64,000 nucleotides of DNA, taken from assembly GCA_049314455.1 (NCBI GenBank), contig JBMOFC010000006.1, positions 747 through 64,746 of the forward strand. The letters run 5' to 3'. This document shows positions 33,001-42,000 of the stretch, in pieces. Each line of letters opens with the position of its first letter. The stretch's first letter is position 1. Made by a program: the position numbers. Source of the stretch: Chthoniobacterales bacterium (GTDB lineage: Bacteria > Verrucomicrobiota > Verrucomicrobiia > Chthoniobacterales > UBA6821).

Positions 33001-36000
33001 TTTCGTGAAACTATTTCAACGCTTTTTCCAAATCGTTTCTTAAATCTTCTACTGCTTCAATACCCACTGACAATCGAACAAAACCATCACGGATGCCGAG
33101 TGCTTCTCGCTGTTCTTTGGGAACGGCGAGATGAGTCATGAGGGCTGGGTGTTCAATGAGACTCTCAACGCCGCCGAGGCTTTCTGCCAACGTAAAGAGC
33201 TCGGTGCGTTGTAAGAACGCTTTGGTTTCTTCGAGTGTGTATTTTAAATCGAGTGAAATCATTCCTCCAAAGCCCTTCATCTGCTCGCAGGCGAGTACAT
33301 GTTGAGGATGGCTTTTTAAGCCAGGGTAAAAAACACGAGCAACTTTTGGATGTGCTTCAAGCCAGGTGGCCAGTTCCATAGCATTGTGATTGTGACGTTC
33401 CATGCGGAGTGCAAGGGTCTTCACACCACGTAGCGCCATAAAGCTATCAAAGGCTCCAGCAACAGCGCCGGTACTATTTTGCAAAAAGTGAAGCTGTTGT
33501 CCAAGTTCCGTACTTCCTACCACAGCAACGCCATTGATGATGTCAGAATGTCCATTGATATATTTGGTGGCAGAGTGGACGACAATATCGAAGCCGTGCT
33601 CGAGTGGGCGCTGAATCATTGGTGTTGCAAAAGTATTATCAGCAACGGAGAGAAGATTGTGTTTCTTGGCAAGAGCAGCAATTTTTTTTAAATCAGCTAG
33701 CTTCAACATGGGATTAGTTGGCGTTTCAACCCAAATCATTTTGGTGTTGGGTTGAATCGTAGCCTCAATCATTTCTACATTGGTAAAATCGATAAAGCTA
33801 ATTTCCAATCCTGCAGAGCGTTTACGGACTCTTTCTAATAAACGGTAGGTTCCGCCATAAAGATCATCACTGGCAATGAGGTGGTCGCCTGGCTCCAGAA
33901 GTTCTAAAATAGTCGCTGTAGCAGCCATCCCAGAAGCAAAAGCAAAGCCACGCGTACCACTTTCTAAGTTCGCAATGCAATCCTCATAAGCACGGCGTGT
34001 TGGATTTCCCGTGCGAGAATATTCATACCCTGTGTGCTTTCCGGGACTTTCTTGAGCATAGGTCGAGCTTAAGAAAATTGGAGTCATGACTGCTCCAGTG
34101 ATCGGCTCTGGTTGTTGTCCTGCGTGAATGACGCGGGTGCTGAGATGGTGGGAATGTTTCATAAAAGTTTGTAACTACCAATGTAGTCTAAGCAGGAAGA
34201 AATTCACCACAAAGATCACAAAGCCGCTAAAGCGGCACACAAAGAGAACAAAATAAAATTTTTGATAAAAAATTTTAAAGTTCTGAGAATTATAAATGTG
34301 GGTAAATTTTAAAGTTCGAAAAAGTGTTATTTCAGAGAATTGAAAGAAGATTTCTTGCTTTAGTAATTAGAATTTTTTTATAAAAAAATTCTTTTTGTGT
34401 TCTTTGTGTAATCTTTGAGATCTTTGTGGTGAATTCTCTTCTTCTGCTAATCAAGGAAGCCGTTTTGTTTCATCCAGTTATCGTCTGCAAATTTTGTTAG
34501 ATAATTACGAATACCATCAGCCAAAATAACAACGCATTTCTCTCCTTTTTTGAGACGTTTGGCTGCTTGCAAAGCACCCCATGTCGTGGCTCCACAAGAA
34601 CCGCCTATTAGCAATCCTTCTTCGCGAATGAGACGTCGAGCCATCAAGAAGGATTCTTTGTCCGCTGTTTTGACATACTCGTCGACAAGGGAATTATCGA
34701 GTACTTTTGGGAAGAAATCATAACCGATGCCTTCGACTTTGTACGAAAAAACCTCAGTGCCACCTCCCAGAATCGAACCATACGGATCCACCCCCACAAT
34801 CGTGATGTTAGGATTCACTTCTTTAAGTTTACGTGAAATCCCAGTGATGGCACCTCCTGTACCAACAGAAATCACCACCATGGCAAGGCCTTTGCCGGCA
34901 TCATCTAAGATTTCTTGAGCTGTTGTACGGTAGTGGATATCAGGATTTGCAGGGTTGCTGTATTGATCAAGAATATGAGAATTGGGGATTTCTTGCTGGA
35001 GTTTTTTTGCAAGCGAGATGTGGCTTTCCGGAGAATCAAAAGCAGCTTCCGTTGGTGTCCGATAAATGGTTGCTCCAAGAACCTTGAGGACGACTTCTTT
35101 TTCTTGGCTCATTTTTTCTGGCATCGTGATGATGAGCTTATAACCTTTCGCTGCCGCTGCCACAGCAAGGCCAATGCCAGTATTTCCTGAGGTAGCCTCA
35201 ATGAGTGTATCACCCGGCTTGATCTTTCCGGCTAGCTCCGCTTCCTCAAGCATGCTCTTAGCAATACGGTCTTTTAAAGAACCACCAGGATTAAAAAATT
35301 CGCACTTACCATACATCTCACACTCGAGTTCTTGAGCAATGCGCTGAAAACGGACGAGGGGGGTTTTTCCAACAGTGTCGAGAATAGTGTTGTAAAGCAT
35401 GGAATAAAAAGGGGTGTTACACTCTCATGCTTCACTCAAGAGCTCAAGATTTTTCACTCTCACCAGGCAAAGAAACGCCTAAAATCCAACCTTCGATACG
35501 GAGTTGTTCTTTGAACGGTGTAGAATATTTCTCTAAATTGAGAAAATCATTATTTTTATGCACCAGATGACGCATGCCCGCAGCTGCCATCAAAGCGTCC
35601 GCTTGATGATCATTGATGCTGGAAAGGGAAGGTGACGTTGCTTGAAAAAGAGACACAAGTTCTTTGAGTTTTTTAATATCACGAATTTTAGAAACTCCAT
35701 GGTTAGCTTTTTTAAGAAAGAGGCGCGGGTAAATTTCTGCAACGACGATAGTTGCTTGGTTGCAGTGCTCCTGCGAATCAAAAGGCCAAAAAGCAATTTT
35801 TTCTTGCAGTCGTTTTTTTAAAAAATGAGCCATGCGCATGGCTGCAAGGCCCCCTTTGCCTACTTGTTTTGCGCCTATTAATTTGAAAGGAGTTTCAGGA
35901 AAACCTAATTGTTGAGTGATGCAGCTCGATTCTGTTTGACGTCGTATCGGTTTAAAATGGAGCGGTTTTTTTCCGGCAACCCAAAAGTCATCACGAAAGG

Positions 36001-39000: not shown

Positions 39001-42000
39001 CGTAGTGTGCTTCGCAGTGCACTTGCATTAGGGAAGGGGCCGAAGTAGCGAGCTCCATCCTCTTTCCGAAAGCGTACTATCTCAAAATGTGGAAAAGGAT
39101 CGCTGAGCCTTACACGGACAAGAGGAAAGCGTTTGTCATCTCGAAAACTGATGTTGTATTTTGGCCGCCATTCCTTGATTAACTTTCCTTCAAAAAGAAC
39201 CGCTTCAGCATCGCTTTTGACAAGGTGATACTCAAAATCGTGAATACTCTCAATAAGGGCACGTGTTTTAAGATCGGCACGTCTGGTGCTTGAAGGGGTG
39301 AAATAGTTGGCAAGGCGTTTGCGCAGATCACGCGCCTTCCCGACGTAGATAATCCGATCTAATCGATCTCGCATGAGGTAAACACCAGGGCGATGCGGTA
39401 CAGAGCGGAGTTTCTTGAGGAGATCTGCTTTTTTGAGTGTTGTCGTCAAAATAAATTGCTGATAAATTGCCGATAAATTGCCGATAAATTGCCGATAAAT
39501 TGCCGATAAATTGCCGATGAAATTTCAACCAAATTACACCATTACTCCGAAGATTGCTAGCCATCTCCTTTGTGTGGAGTCGGCCAAGCAAGAGGTGGTG
39601 CATTTGCCGTTGACAATAACAGTTCTGAATTCATTGCGTGAGTCAGCTCGCCTGATGACGACTCACTATTCAACGATGATTGAGGGAAATCAACTGGAGC
39701 CGGCTCAAATCGAAGTCTTACTCGAGCGAGAAGGACATTTTCCCGGACGAGAGAGAGAAGAACATGAAATCAAAGGGTATTATGCAGCGCTCCACAAAAT
39801 GGAGCAGCTGGTTCTGGAGGGGCGACCTGTCAGTGAAAAAATGATTCAAAAGCTCCATGCTCTTGTGATGGGTAATGGTAGAGTCAAGGTGAAAACAACT
39901 TCTTACCGAGATGGACAAAATGTTATTCGAGATAGCATGACTAGGAGGATTGTTTACATGCCGCCAGAAGCTAAAGATGTTCCTACCCTCATGAGTTCCA
40001 TGGTTCATTGGATTGCTCATGCTCAGTCTATTCCATGTCCGATTGTAGCTGCAATAGCCCACTATGAATTCGCAACGATTCATCCCTACTACGATGGAAA
40101 TGGTAGAACGGCTCGGTTGTTAACAACGCTTATCTTGCATCTGGGGGGATATGCTTTGAAAGGCCTCTATTCACTCGAGGAATATTATGCACGTTATCTT
40201 GACTCCTATTATAATGCCCTGAGCCGAGGTCCTTCTCATAATTATTATGAGGGTCGAGCGGAAAGTGATATTACTCCATGGATAGAGTATTTTATGGAGG
40301 GGATGGCTGATGCCTGTGAAAAAGTTCTGATTCGCATGAAGGAGGCTCAAAAAAAAGGGATCTCCGATCAAAGTTGTCTCCTTCGCAACCTCGATCCGCG
40401 GCAACGAAAAGTGCTCAAGCTTTTTCAAAAATTTGAAACGGTTACGAGTAATCAGATTGGTGTATTGTTTGATTTCAAGCCGCGGACCAGCTCACATGTT
40501 TGTGCGATATGGGTCAAAGAGGGATTTTTACAGGTAGTAGGTAGTTCTAAAAAAAACAGAAAATATAAACTTGTTCGTGACTTTGATCTCTACGGTAACT
40601 AGACCTAAAAATTACTTTTTCTGATGAGACAACATTTTAACACCAACTACCAACCAACAACTGCGAACTGCGAACTGCCATCGTGCAGTGATGGCCTGAT
40701 TTCTATCACTATACCGATCTACAACGAGTGCGAAGCAATCACACCGCTGTTTACCAAGATTCGTGAAGTGATGGATCGTTTTGGAAAATCGTACGAAGTC
40801 ATTTTTGTCAATGATGGGAGTAGTGATGGAAGCGGAGAGGTGCTTGATCAAATCGCAGCAACCTATCTGCAGGCGAAGATCATTCATTTCCGACGCAACT
40901 TTGGTCAGACCGCAGCCATGATGGCCGGTTTTGATTATGCCTCAGGGGAGGTGATTATTCCCATGGATGGTGATTATCAAAATGATCCAGAAGATATTCC
41001 TCGGATGCTGGCAAAGCTGGATGAGGGTTATGATGTCTGTTCTGGCTGGCGCCGCGATCGCCAAGACAACGCCTTGCAACGAAATATTCCCAGCATGATG
41101 GCAAACAAGTTGATTTCAGCGATCTCAGGGGTGCGCCTTCATGATTTCGGTTGCTCTCTCAAGGCCTATCGTCGTGACGTGATTGAAGGGGTTCGCCTTT
41201 ATGGTGAAATGCATCGCTTTCTTCCTATTTATACCAAGTGGCATGGAGCTCGCATCACGGAGCTGCCAGTGAATCATTTTGCACGAACCACAGGTCATTC
41301 TAAATATGGCCTCGAACGAGTGCTTAAAGTGATTTTGGATTTAATGGTTGTTAAATTTCTGGACCGGCATGCACAAAAGCCAATGTATGTCTTTGGTGCT
41401 TGTGGGCTCATCAGCCTAACGGCGAGCTTCGCCTTTGTAGCTTGGGCACTAGGGCTTCTTTTCTTTTCCCAGAAGCCACTCATCACAACACCACTGCCAC
41501 TCATGGCGGTTTTTACATTCCTCATGGGAGTCATGAGTTTTCTCATGGGTCTACTTGCTGAAATGATCACGCGTACTTTTTATGAATCACAAGGAAAGTC
41601 GATTTATTTGGTGCGTGGGACGCGTAATGTTGCCCAGAGAGCAGAGAGAAATAGAGATTAGGTTGAATAATGCATTACAAAAAAAGTCTCATTTTAGTTC
41701 TTGGAATGAAGCGAAGTGGGATGAGCGTTTTAACCAAGGGTCTTGAGACAATGGGTGTATCCTTAGGGAATCATCTCATGCCATCCCATTCATTTAATGA
41801 AACAGGATATTGGGAAGATGCGGATTTTCATGCGCTCAATCGTGAAATACTAGACTCTTTTGGGAATCGTCTGCGTCGTATTGTGCCGCTGACAGAAAAA
41901 GAAGTTTCTATCTTGCTTAAGAGTCATTACTTAGGGCAGGCGGCTAAGTTATTGCTTAAGAAGATACCTCAAGATAGGCCCTTTGCCATCAAGGTTCCTA

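What the first reader, a model, noticed from the sequence alone, without database searches (positions are those of the whole stretch)
35444..39449. uvrC - FeS (6-4) photolyase - unknown RNase-H-like ORF: a compact, possibly novel UV-damage module
Three minus-strand genes are packed tightly. There is a 26-nt gap between uvrC and the photolyase-like gene, and a 4-nt ATGA overlap between that gene and the 300-aa ORF. The middle gene has the C-x2-C-x12-C plus upstream-Cys pattern of FeS-BCP/PhrB (6-4) photolyases. The third ORF is uncharacterised. It has an IAIDWSG N-terminal strand, VAEIYP, and a DHQADALMAA motif, arranged like the acidic catalytic residues of RNase-H-like (DUF429-type) nucleases. 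Translational coupling to a photolyase and co-orientation with uvrC suggest a dedicated partner, such as a nuclease or lesion-processing factor. I am not aware of this being a described system.
Basis: partly seen in the sequence, partly recalled or inferred. Interest (0 to 1): 0.55.

Follow-up and report, generated by a model that had tools for sequence, protein, structure and literature searches.

The report
Photolyase operon with hitch-hiking RuvC-like nuclease gene
The three genes are real (uvrC, an iron-sulfur (6-4) photolyase and a 300-aa unknown). The unknown belongs to a large unnamed family of probable RuvC/DUF429-like nucleases that usually sits next to other genes, so it is not a dedicated photolyase partner, though a genome-maintenance role is plausible.

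Summary
uvrC (37896-39449), a PhrB-type [4Fe-4S] (6-4) photolyase (36343-37869) and a 300-aa ORF (35444-36346) lie head-to-tail on the minus strand. There is a 26-nt gap and then an ATGA stop/start overlap, and every quoted motif is present.

The 300-aa protein has no Pfam model and is called 'hypothetical' in RefSeq. It belongs to a large family: at least 4,250 clusters at 90% identity and at least 553 species genomes, mostly Alphaproteobacteria. Its confident AlphaFold model, its six motifs collinear with true DUF429 proteins, and its RuvC-dominated but non-significant fold hits point to a divergent DUF429/RuvC-like RNase H-fold nuclease.

Linkage to the photolyase is not a family property. 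It occurs only in this small Verrucomicrobia clade and in one unrelated alphaproteobacterial MAG. The usual home is the block rplQ-(degP)-(rarA)-X-(crcB)-rluC. Other upstream partners are dnaE, addAB and many unrelated genes. The 4-nt overlap is a family habit with whatever lies upstream.

The best reading is a horizontally acquired housekeeping or genome-maintenance nuclease inserted behind phrB, in an operon that probably runs on into a cysteine-metabolism gene. By analogy with mycobacterial RelZ it may remove RNA:DNA hybrids. Interest is moderate to low.

The parts
37896..39449 (-). uvrC (excinuclease ABC subunit C), 517 aa, TTG start
   Evidence: Pfam GIY-YIG, UVR, UvrC_RNaseH_dom and HHH_5. 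TIGR00194 scores 424.9 bits against a cut-off of 285.
36343..37869 (-). PhrB-type [4Fe-4S] (6-4) photolyase (FeS-BCP/CryPro), 508 aa
   Evidence: PF04244, E 1.4e-67. Full-length match to A. tumefaciens PhrB 4DJA, E 7e-162, and to R. sphaeroides CryB 3ZXS, E 1e-154. Cys347/435/438/451 and His362-His363 are conserved.
35444..36346 (-). ORF300: member of an unnamed family of about 285-300-aa proteins, a probable divergent DUF429/RuvC-like RNase H-fold nuclease. Its start overlaps the phrB stop (ATGA).
   Evidence: No Pfam hit. Weak NCBIfam hit to the unknown domain of the PRK14495 MobB fusion. AF2 pLDDT 94.5. Motifs collinear with PF04250 proteins. RuvC-type top fold hits, none significant.
34447..35400 (-). 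PLP-dependent cysteine synthase / CBS-like gene, 43 nt downstream of ORF300, probably in the same transcript
   Evidence: PF00291, E 1.7e-73. No terminator-like site in the 43-nt gap. Syntenic in L001-L004.
34223..34236 (-). First terminator-like G+C hairpin followed by T-rich sequence downstream of the gene string (likely operon end)
   Evidence: Consensus scan. This is a pattern match only, and the number of such sites in the region equals the number expected from shuffles.
33011..34162 (-). Cystathionine gamma-lyase/synthase family gene, syntenic with the string in the relatives
   Evidence: PF01053, E 2.4e-155. Present in the same order in L001-L004.
39451..39524 (.). 11-nt tandem repeat (ATAAATTGCCG x6.6) filling the gap between the uvrC start and the divergent fic gene
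   Evidence: An array of the same period and copy number abuts the fic start in relative L001.

Best explanation
In brief: the region is an ordinary uvrC-phrB pair that picked up a third gene.

Shown: uvrC and a PhrB-type iron-sulfur (6-4) photolyase are followed, with a stop/start overlap, by a gene of a large, unnamed, mainly alphaproteobacterial family. In most genomes that family gene sits in the housekeeping block rpoA-rplQ-(degP)-(rarA)-X-(crcB)-rluC-HAD-ATP12. It is typically the tail gene abutting or overlapping whatever lies upstream.

Inferred from the family tree: the Verrucomicrobia copy was acquired horizontally. It is nested among Micavibrio-type and Bdellovibrionota sequences. 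It was inserted behind phrB, so it is now co-transcribed and translationally coupled with uvrC-phrB and probably with the downstream cysteine-synthase-like gene.

Inferred from motifs and models: the protein is a divergent DUF429/RuvC-like RNase H-fold enzyme. Its candidate metal-binding residues are Asp11 (end of strand 1), Asp69 (end of strand 4), Glu204 (EIYPR, end of strand 5) and His247/Asp250 (C-terminal helix).

Speculative, by analogy with the only characterised DUF429 domain (mycobacterial RelZ): it cleaves RNA:DNA hybrids or R-loops, or a branched DNA intermediate, at replication or transcription complexes stalled by damage. On that reading, co-expression with UV-repair genes is useful in this lineage but is not an obligate partnership with the photolyase.
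For: Gene identities.

Family size and anonymity:
- 365 relatives in the first search, all unnamed or 'hypothetical'.
- 1,956 clusters at 50% identity with E<=1e-3.
- At least 4,250 clusters at 90% identity with a divergent profile.
- At least 553 species genomes.
- RefSeq calls the examples 'hypothetical protein'.

Context:
- The upstream gene is rarA in 40, dnaE in 10, PhrB in 4 and other in 26 of 82 loci.
- In 90 further loci, rluC is downstream in 66, rplQ is upstream in 56 and rarA is upstream in 35.
- Called genes with Pfam annotation show rpsM-rpsK-rpoA-rplQ-degP-rarA-X-crcB-rluC-HAD-ATP12 and rplQ-X-rluC.
- A 4-nt dnaE/X overlap is annotated in Azospirillum sp. B510 and a rarA/X overlap in Sphingomonas.
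- Further contexts are addB-addA-X and X-aaRS-uvrC.
- X is embedded in a Chalcone_3/MFS_2/DUF3833/SDR cluster that contains PhrB in L045, and in a related cluster without PhrB in L021.
- Tail-gene habit: 45 overlaps (33 of exactly 4 nt) and 32 gaps of 0-30 nt among 105 scorable loci.
- Tree placement.

Fold:
- The AF2 model has pLDDT 94.5 and pTM 0.93 with the order b1-b2-b3-a1-b4...b5...long C-terminal helix.
- A true DUF429 model has the same order with its motifs at the same elements, and it hits the TEFM RuvC-like domain (E 3.5e-4) and RuvC.
- The best hits of ORF300 are RuvC resolvases and integrase cores.
- Six collinear motifs are shared with PF04250 proteins, and the greedy hhalign alignment lines them up.
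- One family member has the UniRef name 'DUF429 domain-containing protein'.

RelZ precedent: its DUF429 domain hydrolyses RNA:DNA hybrids and R-loops, and the gene is UV-induced (PMC4429107; PMC7591505).
Against: - No statistically significant link to any family of known function. Pfam PF04250 does not hit any of the 57 members scanned: 47 at E<=1 and 10 at E<=10. hhalign gives a probability below 1% and P 0.08-0.11. Foldseek gives E>=0.068.
- The dominant alphaproteobacterial context is an old syntenic block of functionally unrelated genes, so rarA adjacency may be inherited rather than functional.
- The same block puts the gene next to ribosomal-protein genes and rluC, which fits an RNA role equally well.
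- About 14 of roughly 20 independent contexts have nothing to do with DNA: GntP, SSF, AcrB, PBP1, Rho, ABC-F, PGI and others.
- The family has about 90 residues between strand 4 and the helix before strand 5, with its own highly conserved motif (PESPFKLxGxKQVGKGG). True DUF429 lacks this, so the substrate may differ.
- The MobB fusion of a remote relative hints at a non-nucleic-acid role.
Confidence: 0.55

Rival explanations
1. Dedicated photolyase/UvrC partner: ORF300 is a lesion-processing nuclease that works physically or sequentially with the (6-4) photolyase, and uvrC-phrB-ORF300 is a purpose-built UV-damage module.
For: The 4-nt stop/start overlap with phrB, and the same order in the close relatives L001, L002 and L004. 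PhrB adjacency arose a second time in a separate branch of the family tree (L045), inside a photolyase-type stress cluster. A divergent member lies two genes from uvrC. The RelZ DUF429 domain is UV-induced.
Against: PhrB is adjacent in only 4 of 82 loci and in 0 of 90 more. 90 plasmid or chromid records have PhrB, but only 6 records in the whole collection have an ORF300 relative, and the two inspected show it next to dnaE or rarA. The overlap occurs with any upstream gene. In the relatives the synteny extends equally to two cysteine/methionine-metabolism genes, so conservation there reflects recent common descent. Characterised PhrB enzymes repair (6-4) lesions on their own (established knowledge of the family; solved structures listed).
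Confidence: 0.08
2. RNA-processing housekeeping nuclease: the family acts on rRNA, tRNA or mRNA (as the RuvC-like YqgF/RuvX does on pre-16S rRNA), and its position behind phrB in this clade is an accident of insertion with no link to UV.
For: The commonest neighbours are ribosomal-protein L17/rpoA upstream (56 of 90) and an RluC-type pseudouridine synthase downstream (66 of 90). The gene is kept between rplQ and rluC in compact genomes that lack rarA and crcB there, and it also occurs on very low-G+C contigs (24-27% G+C). Other neighbours include Rho, ABC-F and an aminoacyl-tRNA synthetase. The gene behaves as a tail gene of many unrelated operons.
Against: The block also contains clearly unrelated genes (crcB, HAD, ATP12, degP), so adjacency inside it says little. 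Outside the block, DNA-related neighbours (dnaE, addAB, phrB twice, uvrC) recur more often than the few percent of genes devoted to replication and repair would predict. That is roughly 5-6 of about 20 independent contexts by my own post hoc count. The characterised DUF429 domain acts on RNA:DNA hybrids, not on free RNA.
Confidence: 0.2
3. Not a nuclease: the RNase H-like or ASKHA-like core binds a nucleotide or cofactor. The conserved Gly-rich KQVGKGG segment would serve as a phosphate-binding element, and the protein would have a metabolic or chaperone role.
For: 36 of 47 members match the 'unknown domain' fused to the GTP-binding MobB protein in NCBIfam PRK14495. True DUF429 domains are found fused to NUDIX and RelA/SpoT nucleotide-metabolising domains (PMC3985635). 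The family-specific invariant motifs (PESPFKL, QVGKGG, WPF) lie outside the canonical catalytic strands. The Foldseek hits of the true DUF429 model include ASKHA kinases and Kae1/TsaD.
Against: The acidic residues at the ends of strands 1, 4 and 5 and the D-x-x-x-D-A helix are invariant or nearly so across the family and match the RuvC/DUF429 pattern. The GKGG segment degenerates to GTGS or GKSA in divergent members. One member carries an N-terminal Lys/Ala-rich histone-H1-like tail, typical of nucleic-acid binders.
Confidence: 0.12

Closest known systems
DUF429 (Pfam PF04250; COG2410/COG4328/COG4923), including the N-terminal 'RNase HII' domain of Mycobacterium smegmatis RelZ (MS_RHII-RSD, MSMEG_5849)
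   Same: Six collinear motifs: hhGhDhu (end of strand 1), hhuhDxxh (end of strand 4), R-x-x-E, E-(I/V)-Y-P-(R/H) (end of strand 5), (D/E)-(H/D)-x-x-D-A-h-h-x-A in the last long helix, and a C-terminal G-(W/Y)-I strand. Both AlphaFold models have the same order of secondary-structure elements. Both retrieve RuvC-type folds. One family member is named DUF429 by UniRef.
   Different: Pfam's DUF429 model does not hit any of the 57 members scanned, at E<=1 for 47 and E<=10 for 10. hhalign P is 0.08-0.11. ORF300 has a larger insertion between strand 4 and strand 5 with its own conserved motifs (F-W, PESPFKLxGxKQVGKGGLxxMR, WPF) that are absent from the actinobacterial DUF429 proteins. The family is single-domain, with no RelA/SpoT or NUDIX fusion seen among the hits listed.
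RuvC Holliday-junction resolvase and the RuvC-like clade of the RNase H-like superfamily (clade D of Majorek et al. 2014, PMC3985635)
   Same: Five-stranded RNase H-like core with acidic residues after strands 1 and 4 and a D/H-x-x-D-A-L motif in a C-terminal helix. The comparison with RuvC's catalytic residues is from my memory of the RuvC literature. The best fold hits are phage RuvC (probability 0.80, TM 0.53 on the target, E 0.068) and D. radiodurans RuvC 7XHJ (E 0.2).
   Different: About twice the size of RuvC. No hit reaches significance, and there is no sequence-profile match. The dimer interface and junction-binding features were not examined.
FeS-BCP / CryPro (6-4) photolyases: A. tumefaciens PhrB (4DJA), R. 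sphaeroides CryB (3ZXS)
   Same: The middle gene is a full-length member: E 7e-162, four cluster cysteines, the His-His pair and the PF04244 N-terminal domain.
   Different: Nothing notable in the protein itself. Only its downstream neighbour is unusual. 90 plasmid or chromid records carry a PhrB-type gene, while only 6 records in the collection carry an ORF300 relative.
Photolyase-associated photo-oxidative stress gene clusters (sigmaE-ChrR / MerR-type light-induced regulons of Rhodobacter, Caulobacter, Vibrio)
   Same: In L045 the family gene lies in Chalcone_3-MFS_2-DUF3833-SDR-PhrB-X-SDR. In L021 it lies in DLH-DUF3429-amine oxidase-SOUL-X-SDR, with MFS_2 and Chalcone_3 alongside. Operons with photolyase-family genes are blue-light-induced through ChrR/sigmaE in V. 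cholerae (PMC5241685). That SDR, amine-oxidase and chalcone-isomerase-like genes are typical members of such clusters is my recollection, not something tested here.
   Different: The window itself has none of these cluster genes. It has uvrC upstream and cysteine-metabolism genes downstream. L021 and L045 form one clade in the tree, so they count as one evolutionary event.

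Membership tests
FeS-BCP / PhrB-type (6-4) photolyase (middle gene) | Full-length homology to solved PhrB/CryB, with the DPRP N-terminal domain | tested here: met
   PF04244, E 1.4e-67. 4DJA, E 7.4e-162, over residues 1-506. 3ZXS, E 1.1e-154.
FeS-BCP / PhrB-type (6-4) photolyase (middle gene) | Four cysteine ligands of the [4Fe-4S] cluster (one upstream Cys plus C-x2-C-x12-C) | tested here: met
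   C347, C435, C438 and C451 align with the cysteines of PhrB in the printed alignment.
FeS-BCP / PhrB-type (6-4) photolyase (middle gene) | Light-driven repair of (6-4) photoproducts | not testable with these tools
   Needs an enzyme assay. The conserved HHIQRLM active-site stretch (H362-H363) is present.
UvrC (upstream gene) | GIY-YIG nuclease, UVR motif, RNase H-like endonuclease domain and (HhH)2, with an equivalog-level HMM score | tested here: met
   All four domains are found. TIGR00194 scores 424.9 against a cut-off of 285.45. NF001824 scores 438.8, just under its cut-off of 451.
DUF429 (PF04250) for ORF300 | Match to the Pfam PF04250 profile | tested here: not met
   No hit for ORF300. 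None for 47 family members at E<=1. None for 10 divergent members at E<=10, including the one UniRef calls DUF429.
DUF429 (PF04250) for ORF300 | Profile-profile similarity to an alignment of bona fide PF04250 proteins | tested here: inconclusive
   hhalign A1 vs A4: 64 columns covering strands 1-4, E/P 0.076, probability 0.7%. With mact 0.05 the alignment covers 203 columns and lines up all motifs, but P is 0.11.
DUF429 (PF04250) for ORF300 | Same fold topology, with conserved acidic residues at the ends of strands 1, 4 and 5 and in the C-terminal helix | tested here: met
   Secondary-structure strings of the two AlphaFold models, compared with motif positions. This is a comparison of element order, not a 3-D superposition.
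DUF429 (PF04250) for ORF300 | RNase H-type cleavage of RNA:DNA hybrids or R-loops (shown for RelZ) | not testable with these tools
   Literature only (PMC4429107; PMC7591505).
RuvC-like RNase H fold for ORF300 | Significant structural match to a solved or predicted RuvC-like domain | tested here: inconclusive
   PhrB is adjacent in 4 of 82 and in 0 of 90 loci. uvrC lies within 3.5 kb only in the window's own clade and in one divergent lineage. The reverse check on plasmids is negative.

The most novel reading that the evidence does not exclude
The ORF300 family is an unrecognised, widespread genome-maintenance nuclease: a DUF429-like enzyme that removes RNA:DNA hybrids or R-loops, or trims branched intermediates, at damage-stalled replication or transcription complexes. 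It would work alongside RarA, DnaE, AddAB and UV-repair genes. Repeated recruitment into photolyase/uvrC operons (this Verrucomicrobia clade; the L045/L021 photo-stress clusters) would then reflect a real UV-stress function.
Probability: 0.25. Interest if true: 0.6.

Novelty: new variant of a known kind. Interest (0 to 1): 0.36.

Why it matters
If the family is a nuclease acting at stalled forks or R-loops, it would give a function to a 'hypothetical protein' present in hundreds of alphaproteobacterial species, including abundant marine lineages. It would also add a component to bacterial responses to UV and replication stress, next to the poorly understood RarA. The family currently has no Pfam or NCBIfam model of its own, so defining it would improve annotation. 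As it stands, the window shows an ordinary uvrC-photolyase pair plus a lineage-specific insertion, not a new repair system.

Tried and rejected
- **Sequence-family searches of ORF300.** Pfam gave nothing for ORF300, for 47 members, or for 10 divergent members even at E<=10. NCBIfam gave only the weak MobB-fusion domain. PDB sequences gave nothing, whether searched with the single sequence or with a profile.
- **hhalign against a DUF429 alignment.** Not significant in local mode and useless in global mode.
- **Model coordinates.** They are not exposed to scripts, so I could not measure distances between the proposed catalytic residues or superpose the two models.
- **PhrB-ORF300 complex.** The structure tool takes one chain only, so this could not be predicted.
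- **Literature.** I found no description of a phrB-linked partner gene or of the photolyase-cluster composition. The DUF429 search mostly returned DUF4297 papers.
- **Rejected: rarA adjacency proves a functional pair.** The same block keeps unrelated genes (crcB, rluC, HAD, ATP12) in order, and compact genomes keep the family gene without rarA.
- **Rejected: the ATGA overlap shows a specific partnership.** It is a family-wide habit.
- **Rejected: the 11-nt repeat is a uvrC operator.** In L001 it abuts the fic start about 250 nt from uvrC.

Full report
**1. What is in the sequence**

Three ORFs lie head-to-tail on the minus strand at the stated coordinates:
- uvrC, 37896-39449, TTG start, 517 aa.
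- A photolyase-like gene, 36343-37869, 508 aa.
- A 300-aa ORF, 35444-36346.

Reading the junctions directly gives a 26-nt spacer between the uvrC stop and the photolyase ATG. The photolyase TGA shares two bases with the ORF300 ATG, giving a 4-nt ATGA overlap, and a GGAG-like sequence lies just upstream.

All quoted motifs are present:
- Photolyase: C435-x2-C438-x12-C451 plus C347.
- ORF300: IAIDWSG (8-14), VAEIYP (202-207) and DHQADALMAA (246-255).

The exact ORF300 protein is on record as a hypothetical protein of a Chthoniobacterales (Verrucomicrobiota) MAG.

The gene string does not end at ORF300. A PLP-dependent cysteine-synthase-like gene follows after 43 nt with no terminator-like hairpin between them. 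The first G+C hairpin with a T-rich tail lies beyond that gene, at 34236-34223. A cystathionine-lyase-family gene comes next. The terminator and promoter scans found no more sites than shuffled sequence gives, so they are only weak guides.

**2. The two known genes**

The upstream gene has all UvrC domains and passes the TIGR00194 cut-off.

The middle gene is a full-length FeS-BCP/PhrB (6-4) photolyase:
- PF04244, E 1.4e-67.
- A. tumefaciens PhrB (4DJA), E 7e-162 over residues 1-506.
- R. sphaeroides CryB (3ZXS), E 1e-154.
- The four cluster cysteines and the HHIQRLM stretch align.

**3. The 300-aa ORF belongs to a large, unnamed family**

It has no Pfam match. Its only NCBIfam match is weak (E 2.9e-5) and falls on the 'unknown domain' of a MobB fusion protein, PRK14495. 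36 of 47 family members share that match, with a best E of 1.3e-10.

Homologues are plentiful:
- 365 in the first word-indexed search, nearly all 285-310 aa and unnamed or 'hypothetical'.
- 1,956 clusters at 50% identity with E<=1e-3 in the exhaustive search.
- At least 4,250 clusters at 90% identity when a profile of divergent members is used.
- At least 553 species genomes.

RefSeq annotates the cultured examples (Azospirillum, Sphingomonas) as hypothetical proteins.

The alignment shows invariant or nearly invariant D11-W-S-G, D69, R136-x-T-E139, P-E-S-P-F-K-L, Q-V-G-K-G-G, W-P-F, E204-I-Y-P-R, D246-H-x-x-D250-A and E-G-W-I-x-G. In divergent branches the glycine-rich segment relaxes to VGTGS or VGKSA.

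**4. Fold and nearest relatives**

AlphaFold2 with the 47-sequence alignment gives a very confident model (pLDDT 94.5, pTM 0.93). Its order of elements is b1(6-11)-b2-b3-a1-b4(64-68), then a helical insertion, then helix 162-183, b5(200-204) and a long helix 246-264. Asp11, Asp69 and Glu204 close strands 1, 4 and 5, and D246/H247/D250 sit in the long helix. That is the layout of RuvC-type RNase H-like nucleases.

- I took the M. tuberculosis DUF429 core printed in the supplement of Majorek et al. 2014 (PMC3985635).
- I fetched bona fide PF04250 proteins with it and aligned them.
- They carry VGVDLAW / LVAIDAPL / RPAEAALN / RRAIEVYPH / EDQVDAVVCAYVA / GYIVTP.
- These are collinear with ORF300's IAIDWSG / LIGIDSNF / RRQTE / VVAEIYPR / NDHQADALMAAAG / EGWILGV.

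A model of one of these DUF429 proteins (pLDDT 84.9) has the same element order, with the motifs on the same elements. It hits the RuvC-like domain of TEFM (E 3.5e-4) and T. thermophilus RuvC (E 0.019).

The statistics do not clinch it:
- hhalign aligns only strands 1-4, with P 0.076 and probability below 1%.
- A greedier setting lines up all motifs over 203 columns, but P is 0.11.
- Pfam's PF04250 model never hits the family: 47 members at E<=1 and 10 divergent members at E<=10.

I therefore describe the protein as a probable, divergent DUF429/RuvC-like enzyme, not as a member of PF04250.

The only characterised DUF429 domain is the N-terminal domain of M. smegmatis RelZ (MS_RHII-RSD). It cleaves RNA:DNA hybrids and R-loops, and its gene is induced by UV (PMC4429107; PMC7591505).

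**5. Is it a partner of the photolyase? Gene neighbourhoods**

Eighty loci came from species genomes, and I added two annotated plasmid or chromid records.

*Close relatives.* PhrB is adjacent only in the close Verrucomicrobia relatives L001, L002 and L004 (58-77% identical ORF300). L003 is truncated upstream. There the whole string uvrC-phrB-ORF300-PALP-lyase is syntenic, so the conservation says no more for phrB than for the cysteine genes. One unrelated alphaproteobacterial MAG, L045, also has PhrB adjacent.

*Upstream same-strand gene in the 82 loci:*

| Upstream gene | Loci |
|---|---|
| rarA | 40 |
| dnaE | 10 |
| PhrB | 4 |
| other | 26 |
| contig cut | 2 |

*Supporting detail.*
- RefSeq annotation shows a 4-nt dnaE/X overlap in Azospirillum sp. 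B510.
- It shows a rarA/X overlap in Sphingomonas parapaucimobilis, where the downstream genes differ.
- dnaE is the replicative polymerase (NF004226, 1,470 bits).

*Divergent members and marine loci.*
- Ten loci of seven divergent members, fetched with called genes and Pfam annotation, plus 80 metagenome loci (mostly marine), show the family's main home. It is rpsM-rpsK-rpoA-rplQ-(degP)-(rarA)-X-(crcB)-rluC-HAD-ATP12.
- Among those 90 loci rluC is downstream in 66, rplQ is upstream in 56 and rarA is upstream in 35. PhrB is next to none.
- Compact genomes keep rplQ-X-rluC without rarA or crcB. Family genes also occur on very low-G+C contigs in other contexts.

*Other contexts.*
- addB-addA-X.
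- X-aaRS-uvrC.
- Many unrelated neighbours: GntP, SSF, AcrB, PBP1, TIR-WD40, Rho, ABC-F, PGI/cupin and a flavin amine-oxidase-like gene.

*Reverse check.* 90 plasmid or chromid records carry a PhrB-type gene, but only 6 of 72,556 records carry any ORF300 relative. Five are Azospirillum, with the one inspected next to dnaE, and one is Sphingomonas, next to rarA.

*The overlap itself.* Of 151 family loci with enough upstream sequence, 105 have a same-strand ORF of at least 150 aa ending within 400 nt. Of those, 45 overlap it (33 by exactly 4 nt) and 32 leave gaps of 0-30 nt. The ATGA overlap with phrB is therefore a family habit, not a sign of a specific partnership.

**6. What still speaks for a link to DNA damage**

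Outside the alphaproteobacterial block, DNA-replication and repair neighbours recur: dnaE, addAB, phrB in two separate branches, and uvrC in two lineages. That is roughly 5-6 of about 20 independent contexts by my own post hoc count, where a few percent would be expected by chance.

In L045 the gene lies in Chalcone_3-MFS_2-DUF3833-SDR-PhrB-X-SDR. In the Bdellovibrionota locus L021 it lies in DLH-DUF3429-amine oxidase-SOUL-X-SDR, next to MFS_2 and Chalcone_3. These resemble the light-induced, photolyase-containing stress clusters of Proteobacteria. The cluster composition is my recollection. Light induction of photolyase operons through ChrR/sigmaE is documented in PMC5241685. L021 and L045 form one clade in a rough neighbour-joining tree, so they count as one event.

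The same tree places the window's clade as sister to a Pseudobdellovibrionaceae sequence (L019) and nested among Micavibrio-type sequences from the rarA block. This suggests horizontal acquisition followed by insertion behind phrB.

One family member carries an N-terminal Lys/Ala-rich histone-H1-like tail, which fits nucleic-acid binding.

**7. Most likely mechanism and its rivals**

*Shown.* The gene identities, the operon-like packing, the family's size and anonymity, its usual genomic home, and the absence of family-wide photolyase linkage.

*Inferred.* A DUF429/RuvC-like metal-dependent nuclease with D11, D69, E204 and H247/D250 as the candidate active site. Horizontal origin of the Verrucomicrobia copy.

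*Speculative.* By analogy with RelZ, removal of RNA:DNA hybrids or R-loops, or processing of branched DNA, at damage-stalled replication or transcription complexes. This would make co-expression with uvrC and phrB advantageous in a light-exposed freshwater or soil Verrucomicrobium.

*Rivals.*
- An RNA-processing housekeeping nuclease. It is supported by the ribosomal-protein and rluC neighbourhood and by retention of the gene in compact genomes.
- A non-nuclease nucleotide- or cofactor-binding protein. It is supported by the MobB fusion, the Gly-rich motif, and the NUDIX and RelA/SpoT fusions of DUF429.
The neighbourhood data make this unlikely.

**8. Novelty and verdict**

uvrC and the PhrB-type photolyase are ordinary. 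The third gene is an un-modelled, divergent variant of a known kind (DUF429/RuvC-like RNase H fold) with unknown function. The arrangement is a lineage-specific operon, not a described or recurrent system.

The finding is worth a note for two reasons. It points to a widespread hypothetical family with a suggestive but not conclusive bias toward replication, repair and photo-stress neighbourhoods. It also offers clear, cheap experiments. It does not reveal a new UV-repair module.

Noticed in passing
window 39451-39524; L001 6617-6686: An 11-nt tandem repeat (ATAAATTGCCG, 6.6 copies, 96% matches) fills the 61-nt gap between the uvrC start and the divergent fic-family gene, whose likely ATG (39517) lies in the last unit. 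The relative L001 has an array of the same period and copy number abutting its fic start, but with one base changed in every unit (GCTGATAAATT). Position, period and copy number are conserved and the unit has changed in concert. It could be a regulator-binding array or a slippage-prone control element for fic. L004 has only a short unrelated 11-nt repeat there.
   Followed up: partly
ORF300 family loci L001-L172: Family genes are habitually the tail gene of whatever operon they sit in. Among the 105 of 151 loci that have a long same-strand ORF ending just upstream, 45 overlap its stop codon (33 by exactly 4 nt) and 32 leave gaps of 0-30 nt. The partners are as different as rarA, dnaE, phrB and a sodium:solute symporter.
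   Followed up: yes
L045 5230-11585; L021 6458-13371: Two family members that cluster together in the tree sit inside photolyase-type stress clusters. L045 (alphaproteobacterial MAG) has Chalcone_3-MFS_2-DUF3833-SDR-PhrB-X-SDR. L021 (Pseudobdellovibrionaceae MAG) has DLH-DUF3429-amine oxidase-SOUL-X-SDR, with MFS_2 and Chalcone_3 on the other strand.
   Followed up: partly
protein P0127 (family member, 351 aa): An N-terminal extension of about 55 residues made of Lys/Ala-rich repeats (AKKPAKKAAAKKTVKK...), like histone H1 or bacterial histone-like tails, precedes the conserved IDWSG start. If the gene call is right, this is a natural fusion to a nucleic-acid-binding tail.
   Followed up: no
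ORF300 residues 4-211 vs NCBIfam NF011066 (PRK14495) positions 167-385: 36 of 47 family members weakly match the 'unknown domain' fused to the molybdopterin-guanine dinucleotide protein MobB (best E 1.3e-10). A remote relative of the family therefore exists as a fusion to a P-loop GTP-binding protein. I could not retrieve the fusion proteins themselves.
   Followed up: partly
L092 (GCA_902625215.1); low-G+C contigs L095, L104, L126, L133: In compact alphaproteobacterial loci such as L092 the family gene sits directly between rplQ and rluC, with rarA, degP and crcB absent from the block, which suggests a housekeeping role. Family genes also occur on contigs of 24-27% G+C, there in other contexts such as beside a dienelactone hydrolase and a Zn peptidase.
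   Followed up: partly
window 61561-61592 and 62455-62486: The same 15-nt unit (CTGAAAAACAAGATG, 2.1 copies) appears at two places about 900 nt apart, which hints at a duplicated segment.
   Followed up: no
window 39511-40602 (+): A Fic/DOC-family gene (PF02661, E 1e-18) is divergent from uvrC. A homologue (70% identity) occupies the same position in relative L001.
   Followed up: no
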